Source: a virus
Lineage: Duplodnaviria > Heunggongvirae > Uroviricota > Caudoviricetes
DNA length: 19,746 nucleotides
IMG/VR virus record: IMGVR_UViG_2541047849_000002
Direction: 5' to 3' (one strand)
Position numbers and translations under genes: made by a program
In this document: positions 1 to 13,008 of the stretch, in pieces
How positions within the stretch are numbered: the first letter of the stretch is position 1
Layout of the letters: each line of letters starts with the position of its first letter
The notes under the pieces: generated by a model
Databases searched by the model: none
What the model was told of the DNA's origin: nothing
What the model saw: only the letters and a program-made list of their open reading frames with translations

Positions 1-1164
1 TTACGCCTTCTTTATATCCTCCATAATTCCAGAGTGGGACATATTTGGGACATTATCACCAAAAATGTCGTCTATTTTCCTCGCATGCTCTGTCAAATGA
101 TTAGGCGCAAGGTGAGCATACCTACGAACCATTTCTATGGACTCCCATCCGCCCATTTCCTGAAGCACTGATAATGGGACGCCTGACTGAATCAGCCAGC
201 TTGCCCAGGTGTGTCTGAGGTCATGGAAACGGAAATCTTCAATTCCTGCACGACGACAAGCTGATAGCCATGATGTCTTGCTGTCGATGCGCATCTTCCT
301 GACCGCAGGCGTTGATGTTCCATCTGCTCGCTTAGCCGCCTTGGTATGTACAAACACCCATTTGTGATGCTTGCCTATTTGATCACGCAACACTTTACAG
401 GCGGAATCGTTCAGCGCCACACCAATGGCGCGGTTTGATTTGCTCTCTTCTGGATTCACCCAGGCAACTCGTCGCTGCATGTCGATTTGTTGCCATTCCA
501 GATTTATGATGTTCGACTTTCTCAGACCAGTTGCCAGCGCAAACTTGACGACAGATTTCAGTGGTTCGGGGCACTCATCAATAAGGCGTTTTGCTTCCTC
601 CTTTTCCAGCCATCTGACTCGCTTGTTTCTGACCGCTGGTATCTTGATGACAGGCGCTTTTTCCAGCCACTTCCAGTCGCGTTCTGCAGCACGGAGAATG
701 GCCTTTATCATGGCAAGATGCTTTGCCTTTGTCTGAGTTGATACTGGCTTTGGTTCATAAACAGGCGGTTCTTTACCTTTCCTGATGGCGGCCTGAACTT
801 TCTGTTTCCATATTTCTTTCGTCTTTCTGTTATGCATTCTGCTTACAGCAGAGTAAATCTTTGCCTCCGAGATATCTTTAAGCCTTATACCCTCAAAATG
901 TTCAAGCCAGAACTCAATCCGGCTTTTATCTGAATCGAGAGATTTTTTATCAGCTTTTTCCTCAAGCCATCTTAGGCAGGCCTCTTCAAAAGTGACATCA
1001 GGTAAATCCCCTAGCTTTTCTACTCGCCAGAGTTCTGCTTTTCGCTTGTCGTGCAACTCCTGAGCTTGCCGCTTGTCCTTTGTGCCAAGAGATTCCTTAA
1101 TTCGTTTCCCGCCCGGGAGCGAATACGAGGCATACCATATTTCATTTCTGCGGAAGAGTGACAT
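1..1164 (-). CDS. intD: Phage tyrosine integrase (DLP12-type), 387 aa
   Basis: Complete minus-strand ORF, ATG at 1164-1162 and TAA at 3-1. C-terminal catalytic region [10 protein letters not shown] ... RRYAHL fits the tyrosine recombinase signature. Translation matches E. coli IntD as I recall it. Confidence 0.95.
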
Positions 1165-1391
1165 TTTCTTTCCTCTGTTATGCCATCACCCGCGCTCACC
1201 TGGACAGTATGCAGCGGAGACTGAAGCGCCGCAATGCAGGCTTGCCGTGTTGTGAGGTAAGGAGATTTTGGCTTGGTTGGATCTTTACGTGTTGCCTGTA
1301 GGCGGCCTGTTCGTATCCAGTTGGTGGCGGTTGGTCTGGATATCTTAAGAAACTGACAGGCCTCATCGAGTGTGAGGCTGTATGATTCCAT
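1020..1391 (-). CDS. xisD: Excisionase-like HTH protein (Xis/AlpA type), about 123 aa with an unusually long C-terminal tail overlapping int
   Basis: Minus-strand ORF directly upstream of int. ATG at 1391-1389 is preceded by a GAGGT Shine-Dalgarno. N-terminal [26 protein letters not shown] resembles the Xis/AlpA helix-turn-helix. The frame runs about 145 nt into int, so it may be frameshifted or degenerate. Confidence 0.5.
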
Positions 1392-1641
1392 GGTTACCTC
1401 TGCTTTTTGAACGCATGTCACGTAACTTCTTAATGTGTTCTGCCGTTTCGATCTCTTCTGCTATCCGATCTGCATCAGCTTTATTCACAGGTTCAAAGTC
1501 ATGATTAAAGCGGAACATGCTGGCGATACATGTTCTGCCTTTTCGGATGTAGTGAACTTTGTTGTGGGTAGAACGCAGGATTTTGCAGGGAGTGCCGTGG
1601 TGGTCGACGTACCAGGTGTTAGGCAAAATGATTCTGAACAT
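1363..1641 (-). pseudogene. exoD: C-terminal remnant of a lambda-type exonuclease (exo); 5' part deleted
   Basis: Minus-strand frame ending ...HYIRKGRTCIASMFRFNHDFEPVNKADADRIAEEIE aligns loosely with the C-terminal ~60 residues of lambda Exo (...[33 protein letters not shown], recalled). No N-terminal exo sequence is present, and the frame abuts the start of O. Confidence 0.4.
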
Positions 1642-2461
1642 TTTTACACCTCAGTTGGCCGGATTAACACAGCACCAGCTTCTGGTCTTTCTGGCTGTCA
1701 TGCGCAAAACATATGGCTTTAATAAAAAACTGGATTGGGTTAGCAACGAGCAACTTTCCGAATTAACCGGGATATTGCCGCACAAGTGTTCTGCTGCAAA
1801 AAGTGTTCTGGTAAAGCGTGGGATTTTTATTCAGAGCGGGCGGAATACCGGCATTAATAATGTGGTCAGTGAATGGTCAACATTACCCGAATCAGGTAAG
1901 AAAAATAAAGTTTACCTGAAAGAGGTAAATTTACCTGAATCAGGTAAAAAAAGTTTACCCAAATCAGGTAAAGGCGTTTACCCGAATCAGGTAAACACAA
2001 AAGACAAACTAACAAAAGACAATATAAAACCTTTTTCGTCCGAGAATTCTGGCGAATCCTCTGACCAACCAGAAAACGATCTTCCTGTGGTGAAACCGGA
2101 TGCTGCAATTCAGAGCGGCAGCAAGTGGGGGACAGCAGAAGACCTGACCGCCGCAGAGTGGATGTTTGACATGGTGAAGACCATCGCGCCATCAGCCAGA
2201 AAACCGAATTTTGCAGGGTGGGCTAACGATATCCGCCTGATGCGTGAACGTGACGGACGTAACCACCGCGACATGTGTGTGCTGTTCCGCTGGGCATGCC
2301 AGGTCAACTTCTGGTCCGGTAACGTGCTAAGTCCGGCCAAACTCCGCGACAAGTGGACCCAGCTCGAAATCAACCGAAACAAGCAACAGGCTGGCGTGAT
2401 AGCCGGCAAACCAAAACTCGACCTGACGAACACTGACTGGATTTACGGGGTGGAGCTATGA
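1628..2461 (+). CDS. O: Replication initiator protein O (lambdoid); divergent N-terminal iteron-binding domain, lambda-like C-terminal domain
   Basis: LAVMRKTYGFNKKLDWVSNEQLSELTGILPHKCSAAKSVLVKRGIF parallels the lambda O N-domain. The C-terminal ~110 aa (...WANDIRLMRERDGRNHRDMCVLFRWACQ...WIYGVEL) matches the lambda O C-domain as I recall it. Stop overlaps the P start (ATGA at 2458-2461). Start taken as ATG 1628; the ORF track's 1559 is a TTG. Confidence 0.8.
   Translation: MILNIFTPQLAGLTQHQLLVFLAVMRKTYGFNKKLDWVSNEQLSELTGILPHKCSAAKSVLVKRGIFIQSGRNTGINNVVSEWSTLPESGKKNKVYLKEVNLPESGKKSLPKSGKGVYPNQVNTKDKLTKDNIKPFSSENSGESSDQPENDLPVVKPDAAIQSGSKWGTAEDLTAAEWMFDMVKTIAPSARKPNFAGWANDIRLMRERDGRNHRDMCVLFRWACQVNFWSGNVLSPAKLRDKWTQLEINRNKQQAGVIAGKPKLDLTNTDWIYGVEL
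1883..1994. repeat. Replication origin iterons: five 17-bp dyad-symmetric repeats (TTACCYGAATCAGGTAA) inside O, followed by an AT-rich stretch to about 2035
   Basis: Copies at 1883-1899, 1912-1929 (variant centre), 1931-1947, 1955-1971 and 1978-1994, then an A/T-rich tract at 1995-2035. Same architecture as ori-lambda, which lies within O. Confidence 0.7.
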
Positions 2462-3159
2462 AAAACATCGCCGCACAGATGGTTAACTTTGACTGTGAGC
2501 AGATGCGCCGGATCGCCAACAACATGCCGGAACAGTACGACGAAAAGCCACAGGTACAGCAGGTAGCGCAGATCATCAACGGTGTGTTCAGCCAGTTACT
2601 GGCAACTTTCCCGGCGAGCCTGGCTAACCGTGACCAGAATGAACTGAACGAAATCCGCCGCCAGTGGGTTCTGGCTTTCCGGGAAAACGGGATCACCACA
2701 ATGGAACAGGTTAACGCTGGAATGCGCGTAGCCCGTCGGCAGAATCGACCATTCCTGCCATCACCCGGGCAGTTTGTCGCCTGGTGCCGGGAAGAAGCAT
2801 CTGTTAACGCCGGGCTGCCAAACGTCAGCGAGCTGGTTGATATGGTTTACGAGTATTGCCGGAAGCGTGGCCTGTATCCGGATGCAGAGTCTTATCCGTG
2901 GAAATCGAACGCGCATTACTGGTTGGTTACCAACTTGTACCAGAACATGCGGGCCAATGCGCTGACTGACGCGGAATTACGGCGCAAGGCTGCCGATGAA
3001 CTGACCTGTATGACAGCGCGAATTAACCGTGGTGAGACGATACCTGAACCAGTAAAACAACTTCCTGTTATGGGCGGTAGACCTCTAAATCGTGCACAGG
3101 CTCTGGCGAAGATCGCAGAAATTAAAGCTAAGTTCGGACTGAAAGGAGCAAGTGTATGA
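2458..3159 (+). CDS. P: Replication protein P (DnaB helicase loader), 233 aa
   Basis: Translation MKNIAAQMVNFD...AKIAEIKAKFGLKGASV is close to identical to lambda P over its full length as I recall it. Coupled to O and ren by overlapping stop/start codons. Confidence 0.95.
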   Translation: MKNIAAQMVNFDCEQMRRIANNMPEQYDEKPQVQQVAQIINGVFSQLLATFPASLANRDQNELNEIRRQWVLAFRENGITTMEQVNAGMRVARRQNRPFLPSPGQFVAWCREEASVNAGLPNVSELVDMVYEYCRKRGLYPDAESYPWKSNAHYWLVTNLYQNMRANALTDAELRRKAADELTCMTARINRGETIPEPVKQLPVMGGRPLNRAQALAKIAEIKAKFGLKGASV

Positions 3160-3458
3160 CGGGCAAAGAGGCAATTATTCATTACCTGGGGACGCATAAG
3201 AGCTTCTGTGCACAGGACGTTGCCGCGGTAACAGGCGCAACCGTAACCAGCATAAATCAGGCTGCGGCTAAAATGGCGCGGGCAGGAATCCTGGTCGTTG
3301 ATGGTAAGGTCTGGCGAACGGTGTATTACCGGTTCGCTACCAGAGAAGAACGGGAAGGAAAGGTGAGCACGAATCTGATTTTTAAGGAGTGTCGCCAGAG
3401 TGCCGCGATGAAACGCGTATTGAGGGTATATAAAAGAACATCAATGGGTACACAATGA
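3156..3458 (+). CDS. ren: Ren-like protein, 100 aa; last ~8 residues differ from lambda Ren
   Basis: MTGKEAIIHYLGTHKSFCAQDVAAVTGATVTSINQAAAKMARAGILV... matches lambda Ren until about codon 91 and then diverges (...KRVLRVYKRTSMGTQ). This marks the left edge of the inserted island. Confidence 0.8.
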   Translation: MTGKEAIIHYLGTHKSFCAQDVAAVTGATVTSINQAAAKMARAGILVVDGKVWRTVYYRFATREEREGKVSTNLIFKECRQSAAMKRVLRVYKRTSMGTQ

Positions 3459-3525
3459 TGAAACAGGTGAGTTGATTTCAAACTGTAGTACAATTCTCTC
3501 CAGTTTGAACAGGAAAGAATATGCT

Positions 3526-3858
3526 ATGAACCCTTATATTTATCTTGGTGGTGCAATACTTGCAGAGGTCATTGGTACAACCTTAATGAAGTTTTCAGAA
3601 GGTTTTACACGGTTATGGCCATCTGTTGGTACAATTATTTGTTATTGTGCATCATTCTGGTTATTAGCTCAGACGCTGGCTTATATTCCTACAGGGATTG
3701 CTTATGCTATCTGGTCAGGAGTCGGTATTGTCCTGATTAGCTTACTGTCATGGGGATTTTTCGGCCAACGGCTGGACCTGCCAGCCATTATAGGCATGAT
3801 GTTGATTTGTGCCGGTGTGTTGGTTATTAATTTATTGTCACGAAGCACACCACATTAA
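3526..3858 (+). CDS. emrE: Small multidrug resistance efflux transporter EmrE, 110 aa
   Basis: MNPYIYLGGAILAEVIGTTLMKFSEGFTRLWPS...LSRSTPH matches EmrE. AGGAAAG Shine-Dalgarno at 3511-3517. Four hydrophobic segments. Confidence 0.95.
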   Translation: MNPYIYLGGAILAEVIGTTLMKFSEGFTRLWPSVGTIICYCASFWLLAQTLAYIPTGIAYAIWSGVGIVLISLLSWGFFGQRLDLPAIIGMMLICAGVLVINLLSRSTPH

Positions 3859-3889
3859 AAATAATTTGTTTTTAAACGACTAAAATATG

Positions 3890-3930
3890 GAGGCTCTTAT
3901 ATTTATATGAGCCTCGTTTTATGCTTTTTG
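3890..3930 (+). terminator. Putative intrinsic terminator downstream of emrE
   Basis: Inverted repeat GAGGCTC (3890-3896) / GAGCCTC (3909-3915) followed by GTTTTATGCTTTTTG. Confidence 0.5.
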
Positions 3931-4113
3931 TTAATGTCTTTATTTTTTATGTATTCTTTTGTGCTTTCAAGATTATGGCGTGAGAAAATTGCAATACGAT
4001 TATTGTTGTATATTCAAGATAATGTGACCTTAATTGTCTTTTTAAATAAAAATTAAACAAAAGTTATATCCCACCACTAAGGTTTATAAAAGCATACGTT
4101 AGCAGGTGTCACC

Positions 4114-5640
4114 ATGAAAAAAGCCATAGCATATATGCGATTTTCATCACCAGGTCAGATGTCTGGCGACTCATTGAACCGACAGAGAAGACTTATTGCT
4201 GAATGGTTAAAGGTAAATAGTGATTATTATCTTGATACCATAACATATGAAGATTTAGGATTAAGTGCATTCAAAGGAAAGCATGCACAATCAGGAGCTT
4301 TTTCGGAATTTTTAGATGCTATAGAGCATGGTTATATATTGCCAGGAACTACATTGTTAGTTGAAAGTTTGGACAGACTTTCAAGAGAAAAAGTCGGTGA
4401 AGCGATTGAGCGTCTGAAATTGATTTTGAATCACGGTATTGATGTTATAACTCTTTGCGATAATACAGTCTATAATATTGACTCTTTGAATGATCCATAT
4501 TCATTAATAAAAGCCATACTTATAGCACAAAGGGCAAATGAAGAAAGCGAGATAAAGTCAAGTCGGGTTAAATTATCATGGAAGAAAAAACGGCAGGATG
4601 CACTGGAGTCAGGCACGATTATGACGGCGTCTTGTCCGAGATGGCTCTCATTGGATGACAAAAGAACAGCTTTTATTCCAGACCCCGACAGGGTGAAAAC
4701 GATTGAGCTAATTTTTAAACTCAGGATGGAAAGGCGATCATTGAATGCAATAGCCAAGTATTTAAATGATCATGCTGTAAAAAATTTCTCAGGCAAAGAA
4801 AGTGCATGGGGGCCTTCTGTAATTGAAAAATTATTAGCGAATAAAGCTCTGATAGGTATATGCGTACCTTCATATCGTGCAAGAGGTAAAGGAATAAGTG
4901 AAATCGCTGGCTATTATCCCAGAGTCATATCAGATGATTTGTTTTACGCTGTGCAGGAAATTCGGTTGGCACCTTTTGGTATTAGCAATAGTAGCAAAAA
5001 TCCTATGTTGATAAATCTACTTCGAACAGTTATGAAGTGCGAGGCTTGTGGTAATACCATGATTGTTCATGCGGTATCTGGAAGTTTGCATGGCTATTAT
5101 GTTTGTCCGATGAGAAGACTGCATCGATGTGACAGGCCATCAATAAAGAGAGATTTGGTTGATTATAATATCATTAATGAGTTGCTTTTTAATTGTAGTA
5201 AAATCCAACCAGTTGAAAACAAGAAAGATGCTAATGAAACTTTAGAGTTGAAAATTATTGAGCTCCAGATGAAAATTAATAATTTAATTGCTGCATTATC
5301 TGTTGCGCCTGAAGTTACCGCTATAGCAGAAAAAATCAGAGTATTAGATAAAGAATTACGAAGGGCTTCGGTATCATTAAAAACTTTGAAGAGTAAAGCG
5401 GTGAGTTCACTTGGTGATTTTCATGCTATTGACTTAACCAGTAAAAATGGGCGAGAGCTATGTCGTACACTTGCCTATAAAACATTCGAAAAAATCATAA
5501 TCAATACAGATAATAAAACCTGTGATATCTATTTTATGAATGGCATTGTTTTTAAACACTATCCTTTAATGAAAACAATATCCGCCCAGCAGGCGATAAG
5601 TACTCTCAAATATATGGTTGATGGTGAGGTTTATTTTTGA
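4114..5640 (+). CDS. ybcK: Large serine recombinase (YbcK type), 508 aa
   Basis: N-terminal resolvase-type catalytic domain (AIAYMRFSSPGQ ... LLVESLDRLSRE), a Cys-rich zinc-ribbon segment (CEACGNTMIVH...YYVCPMRRLHRCDRP) and a coiled-coil region. AGGTG Shine-Dalgarno. Visibly AT-rich coding sequence. Confidence 0.9.
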   Translation: MKKAIAYMRFSSPGQMSGDSLNRQRRLIAEWLKVNSDYYLDTITYEDLGLSAFKGKHAQSGAFSEFLDAIEHGYILPGTTLLVESLDRLSREKVGEAIERLKLILNHGIDVITLCDNTVYNIDSLNDPYSLIKAILIAQRANEESEIKSSRVKLSWKKKRQDALESGTIMTASCPRWLSLDDKRTAFIPDPDRVKTIELIFKLRMERRSLNAIAKYLNDHAVKNFSGKESAWGPSVIEKLLANKALIGICVPSYRARGKGISEIAGYYPRVISDDLFYAVQEIRLAPFGISNSSKNPMLINLLRTVMKCEACGNTMIVHAVSGSLHGYYVCPMRRLHRCDRPSIKRDLVDYNIINELLFNCSKIQPVENKKDANETLELKIIELQMKINNLIAALSVAPEVTAIAEKIRVLDKELRRASVSLKTLKSKAVSSLGDFHAIDLTSKNGRELCRTLAYKTFEKIIINTDNKTCDIYFMNGIVFKHYPLMKTISAQQAISTLKYMVDGEVYF

Positions 5641-5751
5641 GTAATAATCACTTTTCCAACCGTGCTATAGTAAGAAAGTTAGGTAAGTACAATAAAAGTA
5701 TCTATCCTGAACGAAGCGTCCTGAGCTATGGTTTTACTATAGGGACTGCCA

Positions 5752-6075
5752 ATGGATGCTGGCGTTCCCGTTCTAGCAGTTCAACAATTCCCAATCACAA
5801 AACAATTCACTGATAACGAACTTTGCACACTCGCCTGGTTATGGCGAGCAGGGAATGTGATGTTAATTGCCTACCAGAACGTTACTCATCTTCTTCAGGA
5901 TGCGGAGCATGGTGAGGCTGGTCACTTCACTTCCATCGAGCAAGAATATCCCCAGAGACTCAACAGAGCGCGAGCAATCCTCGCCCGAGAAACGGCACAT
6001 GTAAAACTTCAGCCGTGGCAGGATGATAAGTGGAGTCAAGTATTGCCGCATTTACCTCAGAATCTGTTTCAATAA
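5752..6075 (+). CDS. Hypothetical protein, 107 aa, no recognisable family
   Basis: ORF with ATG and a weak AGGGA Shine-Dalgarno. Base composition by eye is less AT-rich than the flanking ybcK and HNH genes. Could be a gene fragment. Confidence 0.3.
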   Translation: MDAGVPVLAVQQFPITKQFTDNELCTLAWLWRAGNVMLIAYQNVTHLLQDAEHGEAGHFTSIEQEYPQRLNRARAILARETAHVKLQPWQDDKWSQVLPHLPQNLFQ

Positions 6076-6093
6076 AGGCGCTAGTTAGTAAGG

Positions 6094-6119
6094 CTTCCGT
6101 CATTCTGCGATGACGGAAG
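6094..6119. other. Perfect 10-bp-stem hairpin (CTTCCGTCAT-tctgcg-ATGACGGAAG) with no U-tract
   Basis: Inverted repeat read directly, 19 nt downstream of the 107-aa ORF stop. May be a terminator, RNA stability element or recombination-site remnant. Confidence 0.3.
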
Positions 6120-6249
6120 TGCGGGCTGCGTACGGGAGAGCAATTGCATGAATAATATAAATATTCCGCTCACTCCATATAGCGATTTCTGATACAAACT
6201 TATCTATTGTGGTAAAATTATAGAAACAAACTTATAGCGTACTAACCAT

Positions 6250-7032
6250 ATGGACAATATTAATAAACACGGGCTCTCAAGAAGAATACCTGAGACAATA
6301 AAACGTCAGATAAGGCAAAGGTGCGGCTTTGGCTGTGTAATTTGTGGATTTGGATTTTATGATTATGAGCATTTTAAACCTGACTTCGTTGATGCCAAAA
6401 TACATGATCCGAATGGAATGACACTTCTTTGCTCCCAATGCAATCAAAAAAGAGCTCGTGGTAGACTTTCAGCACAGACAGTGGAAATAGCTGACAGAAA
6501 TCCCAAGTGCTTACAGGCTGGTTTTGCAAATGAAATGTTTGATTTTCATAATGAGCCTATAACAGTAAAATTTGCAGGAGTGACGTTTCATAACTGTCAA
6601 AATTTGATTGTAGTCAACGAACAACCCATTCTTTCTGTGAAACCTTCACCCATACCACATGGACCGATGCTTTTATCAGGAATTTTCTGTAATTCTATTG
6701 GTAAGGAGACTTTACTGATAGATGAAAATGAATGGAAAGCTAAATCAGACAATTGGGATGTGGAGTGTACCGGCCCGCGTATAACAATACGACGTGGGCC
6801 AGGAGAGTTTGCCCTCGTTCTAAAAATGGAACCTCCAACAGGATTGATTGTTGAGCGTCTTGATATGTTGTATGAAGGGGTCAGGATGAAAGGAGATAAA
6901 GATCTGCTGGAAGTTTCGATTAATGGAGGTCCCTTGCACAGATGGCAATCATGCTCAATGTCAAATTGCCATACAGGGCTTGCGATTCAGGGCGGTATTA
7001 GAGCTGCTAATGATCCTTTGTATTGCGCCTAA
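6250..7032 (+). CDS. HNH-nuclease-domain protein, 260 aa, with an uncharacterised ~185-aa C-terminal domain
   Basis: N-terminal CGFGCVICGF...YDYEHFKP...NGMTLLCSQCNQKRA fits the HNH motif (Cys pair, catalytic His, Asn, second Cys pair). The rest has no family I recognise. Possible extended -10 promoter (TGgTAAAAT) about 30 bp upstream. Confidence 0.6.
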   Translation: MDNINKHGLSRRIPETIKRQIRQRCGFGCVICGFGFYDYEHFKPDFVDAKIHDPNGMTLLCSQCNQKRARGRLSAQTVEIADRNPKCLQAGFANEMFDFHNEPITVKFAGVTFHNCQNLIVVNEQPILSVKPSPIPHGPMLLSGIFCNSIGKETLLIDENEWKAKSDNWDVECTGPRITIRRGPGEFALVLKMEPPTGLIVERLDMLYEGVRMKGDKDLLEVSINGGPLHRWQSCSMSNCHTGLAIQGGIRAANDPLYCA

Positions 7033-7074
7033 ATCCACTAAATTGATTTTCAACAATCAACTTGCCATAATTAA

Positions 7075-7103
7075 GTCACCGGAGTTTGAACTCCTCCGGT
7101 GAC
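7075..7103. terminator. Strong hairpin, putative terminator/insulator between the island and ninB
   Basis: GTCACCGGAG (7075-7084) pairs with CTCCGGTGAC (7094-7103), a perfect 10-bp stem, followed by TTCTG. Confidence 0.45.
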
Positions 7104-7224
7104 TTCTGCGCTAAACGGGGACGTTTATGCGCACATACAATCCAACCTCTCTTCTCCATTCACAGATGCAGAAATGCACCTGCGATATTTTGCATCCAGC
7201 GTTTGATCTCTGCGGAGGTGAAGC

Positions 7225-7680
7225 GTGAACCTCCCACAAGATGGTATCAAATTGCATCGCGGTAACTTCACCGCTATCGGTCGGCAGATCCAGCCTTATC
7301 TGGAGGACGGCAAATGCTTTCGCATGGTGCTTAAACCGTGGCGCGAGAGACGCAGTCTTTCCCAGAATGCACTCAGCCACATGTGGTACAGCGAAATCAG
7401 TGAATACCTCATCAGCAGGGGTAAAACGTTCGCCACTCCAGCTTGGGTAAAAGATGCTCTCAAACACACTTATCTCGGTTATGAAACCAAAGAACTGGTT
7501 GATGTCGTAACCGGTGAAATCACCACCATTCAGTCATTACGTCATACCTCCAATCTTGATACCGGAGAGATGTATGTCTTCCTGTGTAAGGTTGAAGCCT
7601 GGGCGATGAATATTGGCTGCCACCTGACTATTCCGCAGAGCTGCGAGTTCCAGCTGCTGCGCGACAAGCAGGAGGCGTAA
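7225..7680 (+). CDS. ybcN: NinB-family recombination protein (YbcN), 151 aa
   Basis: GTG start with GGAGG Shine-Dalgarno. [15 protein letters not shown]...[20 protein letters not shown] matches YbcN and the NinB core motif. Confidence 0.9.
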
Positions 7681-7850
7681 TGGCTACACCGCTTATTCGT
7701 GTCATGAACGGACACATCTACAGAGTACCAAATCGTCGTAAGCGTAAGCCTGAGCTGAAACCATCCGAAATACCAACACTGCTCGGATATACCGCCAGCC
7801 TGGTTGATAAAAAATGGTTGCGACTGGCAGCAAGGAGGAATCATGGCTGA
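7680..7850 (+). CDS. ninE: NinE protein, 56 aa
   Basis: ATG overlaps the ybcN stop (TAATG). Translation [56 protein letters not shown]. Below the ORF-track length cutoff; found by manual translation. Confidence 0.8.
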   Translation: MATPLIRVMNGHIYRVPNRRKRKPELKPSEIPTLLGYTASLVDKKWLRLAARRNHG

Positions 7851-8133
7851 TTTGAGAAAAGCAGCGCGTGGTCGGGAATGCCAGGTAAGAATCCCTGGCG
7901 TATGTAATGGCAACCCTGAAACGTCTGTACTGGCACATATCCGGCTGACTGGATTGTGCGGCACCGGTACCAAACCGCCAGACCTGATTGCCACCATTGC
8001 ATGTTCTGCCTGCCACGACGAAATCGACCGCCGCACACATTTTGTCGATGCTGCATATGCAAAAGAATGCGCGCTGGAAGGTATGGCGAGAACACAGGTT
8101 ATCTGGCTGAAAGAGGGGGTTATTAAGGCGTGA
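7843..8133 (+). CDS. ybcO: YbcO, putative Cys-rich metal-binding nuclease, 96 aa
   Basis: ATG at 7843 with AAGGAGG Shine-Dalgarno, overlapping the ninE 3' end. [23 protein letters not shown]...[13 protein letters not shown] matches YbcO. Confidence 0.85.
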
Positions 8134-9241: not shown

Positions 9242-9277
9242 GTTGGGGAGGCAAAGCCTCCCGCAACATATCTTTTT
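9242..9277 (+). terminator. Intrinsic terminator on the plus strand downstream of Q (tR-prime-like)
   Basis: GGGAGGC-aaa-GCCTCCC stem (extendable with one bulge) followed by ATATCTTTTTCG. Position relative to Q mirrors lambda pR-prime/6S RNA/tR-prime. Confidence 0.4.
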
Positions 9278-9287
9278 CGTAATCAGA

Positions 9288-10370
9288 TTAGAACTGATAC
9301 ACCAGACCTACAGCGACGATGTCGTCGGTATCAATACCAGCTGTTTTGGTAAACTTACTATCGTCAATTAAGTTGATTTTGTAATCAACAAAAGTGGACA
9401 TGTTTTTATTAAAGTAGTAAGTAGCACCGACATCGACATACTTGACTAAGTCTCGGTCACCATGAACACCAAGGTCTTTACCTTTTGACTGAAGGTAAGC
9501 AACAGATGGTCGCAGACCGAAGTCAAACTGATATTGTGCTACTGCTTCAAAGTTTTGTGCTTTGTTTGCAATATGGTTATTACCAAAAACGGTCATATTC
9601 TGAGTTTCAGAATATGTGGTAGCCAGATAGATATTGTTCGCATCATATTTCAGGCCTGCAGCCCATACTTCCGCATTTTTGCCGGAGGCATTGAATTTGC
9701 TCTTACCATAGGCGACCTGACCGTCAGTGCGATCTGATTTAGCATAGGTTGCACCCACGCCGAATCCTTCATACTCATAAGTAGTGGAGAAACCGAAACC
9801 ATCACCATTGGCTTCAGTTACGTCAGTGCGGTCATTTTTACCCTGATACTGAGCAGCAAAGTTCAGGCCATCGACCAGACCAAAGAAGTCGTTGTTACGA
9901 TAGGTTGCAACACCAGTGGTGCGACCAGTCATGAACACATCTGTTTGGGTCCAGGTATCGCCACCGAATTCTGGCAGAACGTCAGTCCACGCACCGATGT
10001 CGTATGCTACACCGTAGTTACGGCCGTAATCGATTGAGCCGTAGTCACCGAATTTCAGGCCTGCAAATGCAAGACGGGTTTTGTCTTTGGAGGAACCTTG
10101 AGATTCAGCGCGGTTGCCTTTGAATTCATATTCCCACTGACCGAAACCAGTCAGTTGATCGTTGATTTGGGTTTCACCTTTGAAGCCAAGACGGGCATAA
10201 GTAGTATCACCATCATCTGCATCGTTAGAGGAAAAGTAGTGCTTGGCATTAACTTTCCCGTACAGATCCAGCTTGTTACTGTCTTTATTATAAATTTCAG
10301 CTGCCTGAGCAGACATCGCCATCAGTACTGATGCAGCTACAGCAGAAATTGCCACTGTTAATTTTTTCAT
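9288..10370 (-). CDS. nmpC: Outer membrane general porin (NmpC/OmpD type), intact, 360 aa
   Basis: Signal peptide ending AQA, beta-barrel porin sequence throughout, C-terminal VYQF. AAGGG Shine-Dalgarno. Matches NmpC. Confidence 0.95.
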
Positions 10371-10958
10371 CGTGAGCCCTTTTTTTTGAACTATTATTAA
10401 AAAATGATGTCACTGCGCGATAAATATTCATCTAATCAATGTGATTATTTCAAGATGTAAGTTTTAGTTTCTCATTTAATTTGTGAAGTAGATCTCTATT
10501 TTTATCTGAACTTTTTCTATCGAAACCTATTTATGGCTCTTATTTGAACAAAAATAAACCTATTAGCTAATTTATATTAATGGCTGTTATTTATGGGGGT
10601 TCTATAATTCGGTGGTTTAATTTAAATCAACTAAAAATAACGCCGGAAATTATTTATTGGTTATTTGTTGAGGTTTTCTTATATATTTGTGGTGGTGTTT
10701 TGAACACTCGGTAGCATTCTCATAAATATCATTCAGTGGTTTACGTACGTAAAAAATTGGTTATGCTGTTAAGAGTGGTTACTTCGTCACACAGCTTAAA
10801 CCCGCCGTCGAGCTGGTTTTTCCATTTTTTGAGTCTCGATATTAGCTGATAACTCAATACCTGAGTTATTCACTGACTCCGAGTCTGTTACGTTTCTGCT
10901 TTTTTGCGATACGTTGTATTCCCTCAATTTACACCCGCTTTGTCTGCGAGGTGGGGTT

Positions 10959-11174
10959 ATGAAATCCATGGATAAGTTAACAACGGGTGTCGCCTATGGC
11001 ACCTCAGCAGGTAGTGCCGGTTACTGGTTTTTACAGCTGCTCGATAAAGTCACGCCCTCACAGTGGGCAGCAATAGGTGTGCTGGGTAGCCTGGTATTTG
11101 GCCTGCTGACGTACCTGACAAACCTTTATTTCAAGATTAAAGAAGATAAGCGCAAGGCTGCGAGAGGTGAATAA
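10959..11174 (+). CDS. essD: Class II holin (phage 21 S-type pinholin), 71 aa, with dual-start motif
   Basis: [25 protein letters not shown]... with two transmembrane segments and a charged C-terminus. GAGGTGGGG Shine-Dalgarno. Met1 and Met4 give the holin/antiholin dual start. Confidence 0.85.
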
Positions 11175-11671
11175 TGCCTCCATCATTACGAAAAGCCGTT
11201 GCTGCTGCTATTGGTGGCGGAGCAATTGCTATAGCATCAGTGTTAATCACTGGCCCAAGTGGTAACGATGGTCTGGAAGGTGTCAGCTACATACCATACA
11301 AAGATATTGTTGGTGTATGGACTGTATGTCACGGGCATACAGGAAAAGACATCATGCTCGGTAAAACGTATACCAAAGCAGAATGCAAAGCCCTCCTGAA
11401 TAAAGACCTTGCCACGGTCGCCAGACAAATTAACCCGTACATAAAAGTTGATATACCGGAAACAACGCGCGGCGCTCTTTACTCGTTCGTTTACAACGTG
11501 GGCGCTGGCAATTTCAGAACATCGACGCTTCTTCGCAAAATAAACCAGGGCGATATCAAAGGCGCATGTGATCAGCTACGTCGCTGGACATATGCTGGCG
11601 GTAAGCAATGGAAAGGTCTCATGACTCGTCGTGAGATTGAGCGTGAAATCTGTTTGTGGGGTCAGCAATGA
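11174..11671 (+). CDS. rrrD: SAR (signal-anchor-release) endolysin / lysozyme, 165 aa
   Basis: ATG overlaps the essD stop. N-terminal Gly/Ala-rich weakly hydrophobic segment ([18 protein letters not shown]) followed by a lysozyme fold; matches RrrD / R21. Confidence 0.95.
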
Positions 11672-12129
11672 ACAGAGTAACCGCGATTATCTCCGCTCTG
11701 GTTATCTGCATCATCGTCTGCCTGTCATGGGCTGTTAATCATTACCGTGATAACGCCATTACCTACAAAGCCCAGCGCGACAAAAATGCCAGAGAACTGA
11801 AGCTGGCGAACGCGGCAATTACTGACATGCAGATGCGCCAGCGTGATGTTGCTGCACTGGATGAAAAATACACGAAGGAGTTAGCTAATGCGAAAGCTGA
11901 AAATGATGCTCTGCGTGATGATGTTGCCGCTGGTCGTCGTCGGTTGCACATCAAAGCAGTCTGTCAGTCAGTGCGTGAAGCCACCACCGCCTCCGGCGTG
12001 GATAATGCAGCCTCCCCCCGACTGGCAGACACCGCTGAACGGGATTATTTCACCCTCAGAGAGAGGCTGATCACTATGCAAAAACAACTGGAAGGAACCC
12101 AGAAGTATATTAATGAGCAGTGCAGATAG
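11668..12129 (+). CDS. rzpD: Rz i-spanin, 153 aa
   Basis: ATGA overlap with rrrD. N-terminal transmembrane segment and coiled-coil periplasmic domain; matches RzpD. Confidence 0.9.
11888..12070 (+). CDS. rzoD: Rz1 o-spanin lipoprotein, 60 aa, embedded in the +1 frame of Rz
   Basis: [20 protein letters not shown] lipobox and a Pro-rich mature part ([15 protein letters not shown]). Entirely inside rzpD. Confidence 0.85.
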
Positions 12130-12160
12130 AGCTGCCCATATCGATGGGCAACTCATGCAA

Positions 12161-12454
12161 TTATTGTGAGCAATACACACGCGCTTCCAGCGGAGTATAA
12201 ATGCCTAAAGTAATAAAACCGAGCAATCCATTTACGAATGTTTGCTGGGTTTCTGTTTTAACAACATTTTCTGCGCCGCCACAAATTTTGGCTGCATCAA
12301 CAGTTTTCTCCTGTCCAATTCCCGAAACGAAGAAGTGATGGGTGATGGTTTCCTTTGGTGTTACTGCTGTCGGTTTGTTTCCAACAGTAAACGTCTGTTG
12401 AGCACATCCTGTAATAAGCATTGCCAGAGCGGCAGAAAACAACATTTTTTTCAT
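12161..12454 (-). CDS. borD: Bor-family outer membrane lipoprotein, 97 aa
   Basis: MKKMLFSAALAMLITGC lipoprotein signal with AGGA Shine-Dalgarno; matches Bor/BorD. Confidence 0.9.
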   Translation of the reverse strand: MKKMLFSAALAMLITGCAQQTFTVGNKPTAVTPKETITHHFFVSGIGQEKTVDAAKICGGAENVVKTETQQTFVNGLLGFITLGIYTPLEARVYCSQ

Positions 12455-12813
12455 CTTATTATCCTGCATTGTTAAAAACGGCAGAATCCTATGTGACAAC
12501 AATTAAACGATAGTTAAATGGATTGATGAAAATTAAAACTATATAGGTGGATGCTCAGCCTATTGGAGGAGGGGGGCACTCAGAATCCTGTGGAATGAAA
12601 TAAACCGCTCTTTCTGTCCATTACCCTTTTAGCTGCGCTGTATCGTCGCCGTATTCCCGCATTAACCATGACCGTAGCCCGACGGGGAATTCCTTCTGCG
12701 TGAGTGTGCGGGAATAATCAAAAACGATGCACACCGGGTTTTACTGTGCTGACAGACGCAGGGTTACCCTCATAGTCGCTTTTCCGGTGCGATGGTGGAA
12801 GAAACCGGGATGT

Positions 12814-13008
12814 TTATTCATCATCACTCTGGATTGATGTATATGCTCTCTTTTCTGACGTTAGTCTCCGACGGCAGGCTTCAATGACCCAGGCTGAGAA
12901 ATTCCCAGACCCTTTTTGCTCAAGAGCGATGTTAATTTGTTCAATCATTTGGTTAGGAAAGCGGATGTTGCGGGTTGTTGTTCTGCGGGTTCTGTTCTTA
13001 GTTGACAT
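12814..13008 (-). CDS. Small ribbon-helix-helix (Arc/Mnt-like) DNA-binding protein, 64 aa; possibly YlcI
   Basis: RNIRFPNQMIEQINIALEQKGSGNFSAWVIEACRRRL follows the Arc-type beta-strand plus two-helix pattern. Sits where lambda has small ORFs between bor and cos. Confidence 0.55.
   Translation of the reverse strand: MSTKNRTRRTTTRNIRFPNQMIEQINIALEQKGSGNFSAWVIEACRRRLTSEKRAYTSIQSDDE

What the first reader, a model, noticed from the sequence alone, without database searches (positions are those of the whole stretch)
4114..5750. Orphan large serine recombinase inside a tyrosine-integrase prophage, with a 9-bp inverted repeat just downstream
The prophage already has Int/Xis at its left end, so a second, complete large serine recombinase is functionally unexplained. 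It could mobilise or invert the adjacent cargo or be a remnant of a nested element. Just downstream, CTATAGTAA (5666-5674) and TTACTATAG (5734-5742) form an inverted repeat about 60 bp apart that could be a recombination-site remnant.
Basis: partly seen in the sequence, partly recalled or inferred. Interest (0 to 1): 0.5.

Follow-up and report, generated by a model that had tools for sequence, protein, structure and literature searches.

The report
ybcK: orphan serine recombinase in DLP12
The gene is ybcK, a known, intact and well-conserved large serine recombinase of unknown target, carried as an accessory gene by E. coli lambda-like (pro)phages; the 9-bp inverted repeat next to it is a chance match.

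Summary
The ORF at 4114-5640 is real. It is ybcK of a DLP12-type defective lambdoid prophage at argU. It encodes a complete large serine recombinase (LSR): three Pfam domains, a fold matching full-length serine integrases, and the catalytic Ser11 conserved.

It is not decaying. It is uninterrupted in 79 of 80 surveyed proviruses, dN/dS is about 0.07, it occurs in about 26% of complete E. coli genomes, and it is in 12 sequenced phage genomes. The two of those phages that I checked also carry a tyrosine integrase.

In nearly all E. coli copies seen it follows ren-emrE-ylcJ, in the accessory slot between the replication and nin genes. The DNA downstream of it varies between strains (ybcL-ybcM, BstA, an esterase, unknown genes, or nothing). 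The left breakpoints are staggered at ten or more positions, and some are IS1 or microhomology junctions. I found no inversion and no single common site.

It is no more than chance gives. It is perfect in only 43 of 80 loci, and changes in one arm are never compensated in the other.

Relatives in other genera are the last phage gene at prophage-host junctions, or occupy the same internal slot, or lie on plasmid-like DNA. The target sites remain unknown.

This is a known gene with an open function. Interest is low to moderate.

The parts
1..1164 (-). intD: the prophage's own tyrosine integrase, next to argU in matching genomes
   Evidence: Pfam Phage_integrase 6.9e-47. Annotated intD beside tRNA-Arg in K-12 and WL164.
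3526..3858 (+). emrE: SMR multidrug efflux gene, and the first gene of the low-GC accessory block
   Evidence: Pfam Multi_Drug_Res 3.4e-35. Annotated emrE. 163 of 169 classifiable emrE-bearing IMG/VR matches continue into ylcJ-ybcK.
3889..3922 (+). Hairpin plus T-run after emrE, read as a likely intrinsic terminator. The ylcJ start codon lies inside its descending arm.
   Evidence: Read from the sequence. Dyad score 14/22 centred at 3902. The simple terminator scan missed it because the loop is 12 nt.
3907..4056 (+). ylcJ: annotated 49-aa hydrophobic ORF in the ybcK leader. The leader 3859-4113 corresponds to the untranslated region reported to hold a Rho-dependent terminator in K-12.
   Evidence: Annotated ylcJ. 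Pfam PF23688 YlcJ on the called gene. Rho/NusG-dependent termination upstream of ybcK is reported in PMC4150792.
4114..5640 (+). ybcK: complete large serine recombinase, 508 aa. Ser11 is the predicted nucleophile.
   Evidence: Pfam domains. PHROG 95 'integrase' 5.6e-120. Family profile aligns to the A118 integrase C-terminal domain 4KIS, 189-477 against 36-322. Ser11 aligns with Ser12 of TP901-1 integrase. AF2 model has mean pLDDT 81, and its best PDB matches are full-length serine integrases on att DNA. dN/dS is 0.06-0.08.
5641..5720 (+). Sequence block just after the ybcK stop. It remains alignable, though diverged, even in K-12-type loci. Its function is unknown.
   Evidence: Alignment A2.
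5665..5673 (.). Left arm of the 9-bp inverted repeat (CTATAGTAA): a chance match
5734..5742 (.). Right arm of the 9-bp inverted repeat (TTACTATAG): a chance match
5752..6075 (+). 5'-truncated rha/antirepressor remnant (the 'P22AR C-terminal' ORF). Not a YbcK-related feature.
   Evidence: Pfam P22_AR_C 1.5e-13. Window 5765-6126 is 84% identical to the 3' third of the full-length rha genes of phages PhiR26_1 and PhiR5_1 (Rha residues 105-202).
6250..7032 (+). 260-aa cargo gene of unknown function, in the slot that holds other genes in other strains
   Evidence: No Pfam or PADLOC hit. PHROG 6544, function unknown. Replaced by ybcL-ybcM, BstA, an esterase, a 168/169-aa ORF, or nothing.
7043..7105 (+). 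Constant right-hand boundary of the variable slot (7043), followed by a perfect 12-bp hairpin (7073-7084 / 7094-7105) in front of the nin-region genes
   Evidence: Homology to every variant resumes at 7043. Hairpin I16.

Best explanation
What it is (shown). The ORF at 4114-5640 is ybcK. It encodes a catalytically intact large serine recombinase of the serine-integrase type. It belongs to a low-GC accessory block, emrE-ylcJ-ybcK. That block sits in the accessory slot between the replication genes (O, P, ren) and the nin genes of a lineage of E. coli lambdoid phages and prophages.

What it is not (shown). It is not this prophage's integrase; that is IntD at the argU end. It is not a decaying leftover either, because it is kept intact under strong purifying selection. 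It also occurs in sequenced phage genomes, and the two I checked have their own tyrosine integrase.

The repeat (shown). The 9-bp inverted repeat is a chance match in the spacer between ybcK and a truncated rha gene.

The neighbouring cargo (shown). It changes between strains by ordinary phage mosaicism: exchange anchored in conserved flanks, illegitimate junctions and IS1. It does not change by YbcK-type site-specific events.

How it most likely works (inferred).
- YbcK was acquired from another temperate-phage lineage, where relatives sit as the last phage gene at the prophage-host junction, the position of an integrase.
- It would cut and exchange DNA through a Ser11-DNA intermediate at a pair of roughly 40-50-bp sites that are not among the sequences flanking it here. 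That means it acts in trans or on another replicon.
- In a lysogen it is kept quiet by the terminators in front of it.
- In intact phages it would be read through together with the early-right operon. In this window that route is lost, because the immunity region and the pR promoter are deleted.
For: Identity and architecture:
- Pfam Resolvase, Recombinase and Zn_ribbon_recom domains.
- The family profile covers the recombinase domain, zinc ribbon and coiled coil of the A118 integrase.
- The AF2 model's best PDB matches are full-length serine integrases on att DNA, E = 6e-19 over 552 columns.
- R9, S11, D87, R88, R91 and four zinc-ribbon cysteines are invariant in 19 family members down to 28% identity.
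- S11 aligns with S12 of TP901-1.

Maintenance:
- dN/dS is 0.06-0.08 at dS 0.12-0.18 between the diverged E. coli alleles.
- The gene is uninterrupted in 79 of 80 IMG/VR proviruses, and the S11 motif is present in 80 of 80.
- Its 5' region is present in 1406 of 5426 complete E. coli genomes.
- It is 97-98% identical in 12 phage genome records. Perceval has a tyrosine Int and Xis, and PhiR34_1 has an integrase.

Context:
- In nearly every locus examined it follows ren-emrE-ylcJ; the exceptions are IS-disrupted copies.
- GC is 33-39% here against 45-56% in the flanks.

Cargo turnover without YbcK:
- The identical YbcK protein is found with four or more different downstream cargoes.
- Left breakpoints fall at 5649, 5691, 5706, 5912, 5925, 5966/5971, 6055, 6063, 6068, 6126 and 7013. 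The right breakpoint is always 7043.
- Partial copies are IS1 truncations.
- The junction at 5925 joins the rha remnant to the extreme 3' end of a second emrE allele.
- The slot is equally variable in phages without ybcK, for example PD-lambda-1, rha and an acyltransferase.

Relatives:
- They are the last phage gene before host DNA in Atlantibacter (540 bp from the 3' end of ssrA), Erwinia (before lepA) and Ewingella. In Yersinia the relative is the last gene of a lambda-like prophage, abutting a P2-like prophage.
- They occupy the same internal slot in lambdoid prophages of Atlantibacter RC6 and Pantoea dispersa.

Silencing: Rho/NusG-dependent termination in the ybcK leader in K-12 is reported in PMC4150792.
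Against: - No recombination sites were found, so the central mechanistic step is inference.
- Among more than 1400 E. coli genomes and 80 proviruses, no locus shows ybcK at a prophage edge or any junction attributable to it. Activity has therefore left no visible trace in this species.
- The 'integrase' role of the relatives at prophage edges rests on position only. The far ends of those prophages could not be fetched, so a tyrosine integrase there is not excluded.
- Strong purifying selection would also fit a non-recombination role.
- The clean 2083-bp difference between K-12 DLP12 and the emrE-ybcL-ybcM relic near fliE could be a footprint of mobility of the gene itself.
Confidence: 0.5

Rival explanations
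1. Nested-element reading. ylcJ-ybcK is what is left of, or is all of, a small integrative element whose only gene is the recombinase. It inserted just downstream of emrE in a lambdoid phage and has since been carried along passively.
For: - K-12 DLP12 differs from the widespread emrE-ybcL-ybcM relic next to fliE by one clean 2083-bp segment. That segment holds only ylcJ, ybcK and 309 bp.
- emrE-bearing proviruses exist without ybcK: four go from emrE straight to an esterase gene, and one goes from emrE to ybcL.
- The block is compositionally foreign.
- Relatives sit at prophage ends and on plasmid- or ICE-like DNA.
- Two Atlantibacter homologues, 76% identical in DNA, share nothing beyond the gene plus 68 bp upstream, yet lie in different contexts.
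Against: - The two ends of the 2083-bp segment show no inverted-repeat or att-like relation, and the empty site carries 4 extra bases (ATCC).
- In E. coli the gene was never seen at a second insertion site. It follows emrE in 163 of 169 classifiable emrE-bearing matches and in nearly all ybcK loci examined.
- dN/dS of about 0.07 and 79 of 80 intact copies are not what a passive relic shows.
- The 38-bp 'repeat' that seemed to bracket the gene in Perceval-type phages is the 3' UTR of a second emrE allele joined by an illegitimate junction.
Confidence: 0.2
2. Second integration system. YbcK is a working alternative integrase for the phage that carries it, with its own attP next to the gene. This would let the phage lysogenise at a second chromosomal site.
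For: - It has the complete serine-integrase architecture.
- Relatives occupy integrase-like positions.
- It is retained in sequenced phage genomes.
- A 46-bp imperfect dyad (14 of 22 positions) lies 70 bp upstream of the start codon, centred at 4045.
Against: - Integration through a site next to ybcK would place ybcK at a prophage end. This was not seen in any sampled locus of 1406 genomes or in 80 proviruses.
- The upstream region is contiguous in 1402 of 1406 genomes, and the few partial matches examined near ybcK were IS1 junctions.
- The dyad is an A/T-run feature and is barely above the AT-rich background, whose 99th percentile is 12 of 22.
Confidence: 0.1
3. Cargo-handling recombinase. 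YbcK captures, swaps or inverts the neighbouring cargo genes, using sites such as the 9-bp inverted repeat, in the manner of an integron or an invertase.
For: - The most variable DNA of the region begins within 10-500 bp of the ybcK stop codon.
- One of the alternative cargoes is the BstA defence gene.
- Small serine recombinases are reported as markers of defence loci (PMC13552941).
- A prophage serine invertase has a defence role (PMC12529663).
Against: - The left breakpoints are staggered over about 1.4 kb rather than falling at one site.
- Several junctions are IS1 or microhomology events.
- No inverted arrangement was seen in the sampled matches.
- The inverted repeat is at chance level and not conserved.
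- The slot varies just as much in phages without ybcK.
Confidence: 0.05
4. Non-recombination role. The protein is kept for DNA binding, for example as a regulator or as an exclusion or defence factor, and no longer carries out productive recombination.
For: - Strong purifying selection with no visible recombination products in E. coli genomes.
- It lies among exclusion and defence-type genes (ren upstream; BstA in some strains).
Against: - All catalytic residues and the zinc-ribbon cysteines are invariant across a family down to 28% identity. That is not expected if chemistry were dispensable.
- There is no match to any PADLOC defence model.
Confidence: 0.1

Closest known systems
YbcK of the E. 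coli K-12 cryptic prophage DLP12 (RefSeq 'recombinase family protein', WP_000709082.1)
   Same: It is the same gene. The two proteins differ by about 13 amino acids out of 508 (97.6% identical), share the ren-emrE-ylcJ-ybcK synteny, and lie in the same prophage at argU.
   Different: In K-12 the downstream cargo is ybcL-ybcM, and homology to this window ends 9 bp after the stop codon. K-12 also has IS3 in ren and less of O and P. Neither copy has an assigned function.
Serine integrases of temperate phages (A118/LI integrase, TP901-1, phiC31, Bxb1)
   Same: It has the same architecture: N-terminal catalytic domain with the nucleophilic serine, long helix E, recombinase domain, and zinc ribbon with an embedded coiled coil. 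The best structural matches are full-length integrase-att complexes.
   Different: Those enzymes sit beside their attP and end up at a prophage edge. YbcK lies about 3 kb inside a prophage that uses a tyrosine integrase. No attP/attB pair and no directionality factor could be identified. Sequence identity is only 14-20%.
Pin-type invertases of E. coli cryptic prophages (PinE, PinQ, PinR)
   Same: They are serine recombinases carried inside cryptic lambdoid prophages that are not the prophage's integrase. PinQ acts in trans on a segment of another prophage (PMC12529663).
   Different: Pin enzymes are small (about 190 aa), have a C-terminal helix-turn-helix, and act on defined inverted sites bracketing an invertible segment. 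YbcK is 508 aa with a recombinase domain and a zinc ribbon, and no invertible segment exists here.
Serine-recombinase genes as neighbours of anti-phage defence genes (RADS survey, PMC13552941)
   Same: A serine recombinase lies next to a fast-changing slot that holds a defence gene (BstA) in some strains.
   Different: That association was described for small serine recombinases. Here the slot is variable whether or not ybcK is present.
ssrA-targeting serine-recombinase islands of Dehalococcoides (PMC3146451, title and abstract only)
   Same: The 60%-identical Atlantibacter homologue is the last gene of a prophage, 540 bp from the 3' end of ssrA.
   Different: This is a different phylum and a different element type. 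The E. coli gene is not near ssrA or any prophage end.

Membership tests
Large serine recombinase (serine integrase type) | N-terminal resolvase-type catalytic domain with the nucleophilic serine and the conserved Arg/Asp residues | tested here: met
   Pfam Resolvase 5.3e-19, covering model positions 1-141 of 145. R9, S11, D87, R88 and R91 are invariant in alignment A1. S11 aligns with S12 of TP901-1 integrase.
Large serine recombinase (serine integrase type) | Recombinase domain followed by a zinc-ribbon domain with four cysteines | tested here: met
   Pfam PF07508 2.3e-14 and PF13408 8.2e-8. C309, C312, C331 and C339 are invariant.
Large serine recombinase (serine integrase type) | Coiled-coil motif embedded in the zinc-ribbon domain | tested here: met
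   The family profile aligns across the A118 integrase coiled coil. The AF2 model has long paired helices at 368-397 and 401-429, followed by the closing strands.
Large serine recombinase (serine integrase type) | Overall fold like solved full-length enzymes | tested here: met
   Foldseek top hits are 9DXD, 9DXF and 9DXH (serine integrase on att DNA, E = 6e-19 to 2e-17, about 550 aligned columns), followed by phiC31 and Bxb1.
Large serine recombinase (serine integrase type) | A cognate pair of roughly 40-50-bp att sites with a central dinucleotide | tested here: inconclusive
   No conserved motif lies downstream of family members. No dyad stands clearly above the AT-rich background. The junctions of the 2083-bp indel are not att-like.
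Large serine recombinase (serine integrase type) | Strand exchange activity | not testable with these tools
   This needs an in vivo or in vitro recombination assay.
Integrase of the resident prophage | Gene lies next to the prophage-host junction (attL or attR) | tested here: not met
   ybcK lies about 3 kb inside the prophage. The junction gene is intD beside argU. No E. coli locus examined shows ybcK at a prophage edge.
Site-specific DNA inversion system (Hin/Gin/Pin type) | Small recombinase (about 190 aa) with a C-terminal helix-turn-helix | tested here: not met
   The protein is 508 aa with a recombinase domain and a zinc ribbon.
Site-specific DNA inversion system (Hin/Gin/Pin type) | Conserved inverted sites bracketing a segment found in both orientations | tested here: not met
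   There is only a 9-bp inverted repeat. It is perfect in 43 of 80 loci, with uncompensated changes elsewhere. No inverted arrangement was found in the sampled matches.
Integron-like cassette platform | Cassettes joined at one fixed site next to the recombinase gene | tested here: not met
   Left cargo breakpoints fall at ten or more different positions between 5649 and 7013.
ybcK orthologue group of DLP12-type lambdoid phages | High identity plus ren-emrE-ylcJ-ybcK synteny | tested here: met
   97-100% amino-acid identity and the same upstream genes in K-12, D2, O157, phage Perceval and 80 IMG/VR loci.

The most novel reading that the evidence does not exclude
YbcK-type large serine recombinases could be a recurrent, selected accessory function of enterobacterial lambdoid phages. 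The gene sits in the same slot in Escherichia, Atlantibacter and Pantoea at 42-60% identity. Such an enzyme might act in trans during infection or induction. It might join the phage to a second site or to another prophage. It might also drive exchange at the defence/moron slot beside it, through sites too short or too diverged to see by comparison.
Probability: 0.12. Interest if true: 0.65.

Novelty: already known. Interest (0 to 1): 0.3.

Why it matters
ybcK sits in E. coli K-12 and in about a quarter of complete E. coli genomes, yet nobody knows what it recombines.

If its sites were found, three things would follow:
- It would add an E. coli-native serine integrase and att pair to the genome-engineering toolbox.
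- It would explain why phages that already have a tyrosine integrase keep a second, strongly conserved recombinase.
- It would test whether such enzymes contribute to the rapid turnover of the defence/moron slot next to them.

As it stands, the window shows a correctly spotted but already annotated gene, plus a repeat that means nothing.

Tried and rejected
1. The 9-bp inverted repeat as a site. Rejected on chance expectation, lack of extension, absence or imperfection in 37 of 80 loci with no compensatory change, and an unremarkable fold.

2. A common cassette junction next to ybcK. Rejected because the breakpoints are staggered.

3. A 38-bp motif (3850-3887) that seemed to bracket ylcJ-ybcK as a direct repeat in Perceval-type phages. 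It is the 3' UTR of a second emrE allele, fused to the truncated rha by an illegitimate junction.

4. The imperfect palindrome TTAAAAATAATTTGTTTTTAA at the emrE stop codon, close to the K-12/U13A breakpoint. It is an A/T run, the other junction has no matching arm, and the empty site has 4 extra bases (read by eye).

5. Att-like ends of the 2083-bp K-12 segment. No inverted-repeat relation was found.

6. A conserved motif downstream of homologues in other genera. None was found.

7. A dyad-symmetry scan of the flanks. The best score, at 4045 (14 of 22), is barely above the AT-rich background. The 3902 hit is the emrE terminator hairpin.

8. Partial matches in E. coli genomes that might have marked recombinant junctions. 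They are IS1 truncations.

9. ylcJ as a directionality factor. It is a hydrophobic 49-aa ORF starting inside the emrE terminator hairpin, which makes this unlikely. This was not tested further.

10. PADLOC: no defence model matches YbcK or the window's cargo.

11. A single-sequence search of PDB sequences found nothing. The family profile was needed.

12. Walking to the far end of the prophages that carry edge-located homologues was not possible with the look-up rules.
Full report
WHAT IS THERE

The window is a DLP12-type defective lambdoid prophage of E. coli. Positions 3400-7200 are 100% identical to strain D2. Positions 3114-8113 are 100% identical to another assembly.

Gene order from the left:
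- tyrosine integrase intD (1-1164, - strand)
- a 5'-truncated O gene, then P and ren
- emrE and ylcJ
- the ORF in question (4114-5640, 508 aa)
- a 107-aa 'P22AR C-terminal' ORF and a 260-aa ORF of unknown function
- ybcN, ninE, ybcO, rusA and quuD
- a porin gene, lysis genes and bor
- a Nu1-fusion ORF, an AraC-family gene, and ompT (annotated in matching genomes)

Everything between the int region and codon 72 of O is missing. That includes the immunity region and the early promoters. I could not verify an excisionase.

THE OBSERVATION

The ORF is exactly as described. It has the three Pfam domains of a large serine recombinase.

The right arm is at 5734-5742.

It is not remarkable statistically:
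- About 1.5 such 9-bp repeats with a loop of 100 nt or less are expected in the AT-rich stretch 3859-5751, and one is seen.
- For this 111-bp spacer alone the uncorrected probability is 0.025.
- It is one of 66 inverted pairs that the repeat finder lists in 3.9 kb.
- The region folds no better than shuffled sequence (z = +0.29), and the best fold does not use the pairing.

THE PROTEIN

- A profile of 19 family members aligns end to end with the recombinase domain, zinc ribbon and coiled coil of the A118 integrase.
- Ser11 aligns with the catalytic Ser12 of TP901-1 integrase. That Ser12 is the nucleophile is established knowledge, not something tested here.
- R9, S11, D87, R88, R91 and the four zinc-ribbon cysteines are invariant down to 28% identity.
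- An AlphaFold2 model (mean pLDDT 81) finds full-length serine integrases bound to att DNA as its best PDB matches, followed by phiC31 and Bxb1.

Membership of the large-serine-recombinase family is therefore met on every sequence and fold criterion. The att sites and the activity remain untested.

IS IT A DECAYING LEFTOVER? NO.

- Between the diverged E. coli alleles, dN/dS is 0.06-0.08 at dS 0.12-0.18.
- In 80 IMG/VR proviral loci the gene is uninterrupted in 79, and the Ser11 motif is present in all 80.
- Its 5' region occurs in 1406 of 5426 complete E. coli genomes.
- It is present at 97-98% identity in 12 phage genome records.
- Phage Perceval also has a tyrosine integrase and excisionase at the usual place, and PhiR34_1 has an IntD-like integrase.

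The 'two recombinases' arrangement is therefore a stable feature of a phage lineage. It is not an accident of this cryptic prophage.

CONTEXT IN E. COLI

In nearly every locus examined, ybcK follows ren-emrE-ylcJ; the exceptions are IS-disrupted copies. The block has 33-39% GC, against 45-56% for the flanking phage modules.

What follows ybcK varies:
- ybcL-ybcM (K-12 type)
- a truncated rha plus the 260-aa ORF (this window)
- a truncated rha plus a 168/169-aa ORF
- a truncated rha plus BstA, a known abortive-infection defence protein (PADLOC 3.6e-121)
- an esterase gene on the other strand
- nothing

The identical YbcK protein occurs with at least four of these.

The 107-aa ORF is the 3' third of a rha gene that is full-length in phages lacking ybcK.

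DOES YBCK MOVE THE CARGO? THE COMPARATIVE RECORD SAYS NO.

- Homology to the window always resumes at 7043, where the conserved nin module starts. On the left it ends at 5649, 5691, 5706, 5912, 5925, 5966/5971, 6055, 6063, 6068, 6126 or 7013.
- The loci with no cargo gene are deletion derivatives.
- Two partial copies near ybcK are IS1 junctions.
- The 5925 junction joins the rha remnant to the last bases of a second emrE allele. That allele's own arrangement, emrE followed directly by the esterase gene, exists in four proviruses.
- No inverted arrangement appeared in the sampled matches.
- Phages without ybcK have the same slot filled with other genes, such as PD-lambda-1 and an acyltransferase.

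This is ordinary lambdoid mosaicism anchored in conserved flanks.

THE INVERTED REPEAT ACROSS STRAINS

- K-12-type loci diverge sharply 9 bp after the stop codon and lack the right arm.
- O157-type loci lose it to a deletion at 5706.
- Perceval-type loci have CTATGGTAT on the left against an unchanged right arm (7 of 9 positions complementary).
- In 80 loci it is perfect in 43, absent in 20, imperfect in 16 (8/9, 7/9 or 6/9), and one-armed in 1. No change is ever compensated.

It is not a conserved feature of ybcK.

THE NESTED-ELEMENT IDEA

About 4000 E. coli genomes carry emrE-ybcL-ybcM next to fliE, in a degraded lambdoid relic without ybcK. K-12 DLP12 differs from it by one clean 2083-bp segment holding ylcJ, ybcK and 309 bp. 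This is the best evidence that ybcK once arrived or left as a unit.

However:
- The ends show no att-like relation.
- The empty site has four extra bases.
- The flanks are about 10% diverged.
- The gene was never seen elsewhere in E. coli.

I keep this as the main rival explanation.

RELATIVES ELSEWHERE

The family is spread through Enterobacterales at 36-61% identity.

Last phage gene at a prophage end:
- In Atlantibacter it comes after tail-fibre genes, 540 bp from the 3' end of ssrA.
- In Erwinia rhapontici it comes after lambda-type tail genes, before lepA.
- In Ewingella it comes after myovirus baseplate and fibre genes, before host genes.
- In Yersinia it lies between a lambda-like prophage end and a P2-like prophage.

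Same internal slot as in E. coli, in lambdoid prophages:
- In Atlantibacter sp. RC6 it lies between a cytosine methyltransferase gene and dinI/nin-type genes.
- In Pantoea dispersa it lies in a prophage with a tyrosine integrase.

Plasmid- or ICE-like DNA:
- Citrobacter koseri and Pantoea wallisii.

Two Atlantibacter homologues share only the gene and 68 bp upstream. No conserved flanking motif exists across genera. The edge positions look like integrase positions, but the far ends of those prophages could not be fetched, so this is inference.

EXPRESSION

In K-12 the untranslated region in front of ybcK terminates transcription in a Rho/NusG-dependent way (PMC4150792). A hairpin with a T-run follows emrE.

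In intact phages the gene lies downstream of O-P-ren, and antiterminated early transcription would be expected to read through it. This is inferred from lambda biology. In this window the promoter region is deleted.

LITERATURE

I found no paper that assigns YbcK a recombination function. The nearest themes are:
- Small serine recombinases as markers of defence loci (PMC13552941).
- PinQ, a small prophage invertase that acts in trans on another prophage (PMC12529663).

VERDICT

The gene was correctly spotted and is a real puzzle, but it is the already annotated ybcK. The repeat is noise, and the neighbouring variation does not implicate the enzyme.

The best-supported reading is an intact serine-integrase-type enzyme, captured into the accessory slot of lambdoid phages and kept by selection. 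It would act on sites not present next to it. The sites and the role remain to be found by experiment.

Noticed in passing
L005 5877-6806; L105 and L108 8162-9091 (same slot as window 6250-7032): In other strains the slot downstream of ybcK holds BstA, a known prophage abortive-infection defence gene (PADLOC 3.6e-121, PHROG 6287). It is preceded by the same truncated rha remnant.
   Followed up: partly
window 6250-7032 (+): A 260-aa cargo ORF with no Pfam or PADLOC hit (PHROG 6544, function unknown; weak HNH-like hit at 6e-4). It occupies a slot that elsewhere holds defence genes, so it is a candidate defence or exclusion gene.
   Followed up: partly
L006 (strain U13A) 6078-7937, and about 4000 E. 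coli genomes: Most E. coli carry emrE-ybcL-ybcM next to fliE, in a heavily degraded lambdoid relic. Short matches to the ybcN-upstream region and to the 3' end of quuD follow ybcM. There is no ybcK. K-12 has emrE only in DLP12.
   Followed up: partly
window 13397-15823 (+): An 808-aa ORF whose first 164 residues are the terminase small subunit Nu1 (Pfam 3.7e-100). The rest is something else, and matching genomes annotate tail-fibre or head-spike proteins here. It looks like a deletion fusing packaging and tail-fibre genes.
   Followed up: no
window 1164-1660: The prophage lacks everything between the int region and codon 72 of O: no recognisable xis, exo/bet/gam, N, cI, cro or cII. A DUF4222 ORF (1363-1641, - strand) abuts the truncated O.
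   Followed up: partly
window 3889-3922 and 3907: The annotated small gene ylcJ starts inside the descending arm of the hairpin that follows emrE. It encodes a very hydrophobic 49-aa peptide. Whether it is a real gene is unclear.
   Followed up: no
window 3959-3977 and 4006-4024: Two 19-nt direct repeats (TTGTGCTTTCAAGATTATG and TTGTATATTCAAGATAATG, 79% identical, 47 nt apart) lie in the ybcK leader. They could be chance or a protein-binding pair.
   Followed up: no
window 7073-7105: A perfect 12-bp hairpin (AAGTCACCGGAG ... CTCCGGTGACTT, 9-nt loop) lies 30 bp after the constant right boundary of the variable slot, in front of the nin-type genes. It is at the position where lambda has terminator tR2; that placement is from my memory of lambda and was not tested.
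   Followed up: no
L024 (Candidatus Pantoea alvi) 9256-12859: A 49%-identical YbcK homologue lies in the opposite orientation, between a complete replication gene P and a second, partial P copy (residues 77-223). It is next to an HTH gene and a thymidylate-kinase-like gene, which has weak PADLOC hits. This is an odd arrangement that might mark an insertion into P.
   Followed up: partly
window 9288-10370 (-): The porin gene (nmpC/ompC-like) is intact here. In K-12 the corresponding gene is disrupted by IS5.
   Followed up: no
L092 7810-7847; L244, L261, L278 and L289: Two alleles of the emrE 3' UTR and terminator exist. In esterase-type phages a second, orphan copy of the 3' UTR sits downstream of ybcK. 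Four proviruses have emrE followed directly by the esterase gene, with no ybcK.
   Followed up: yes
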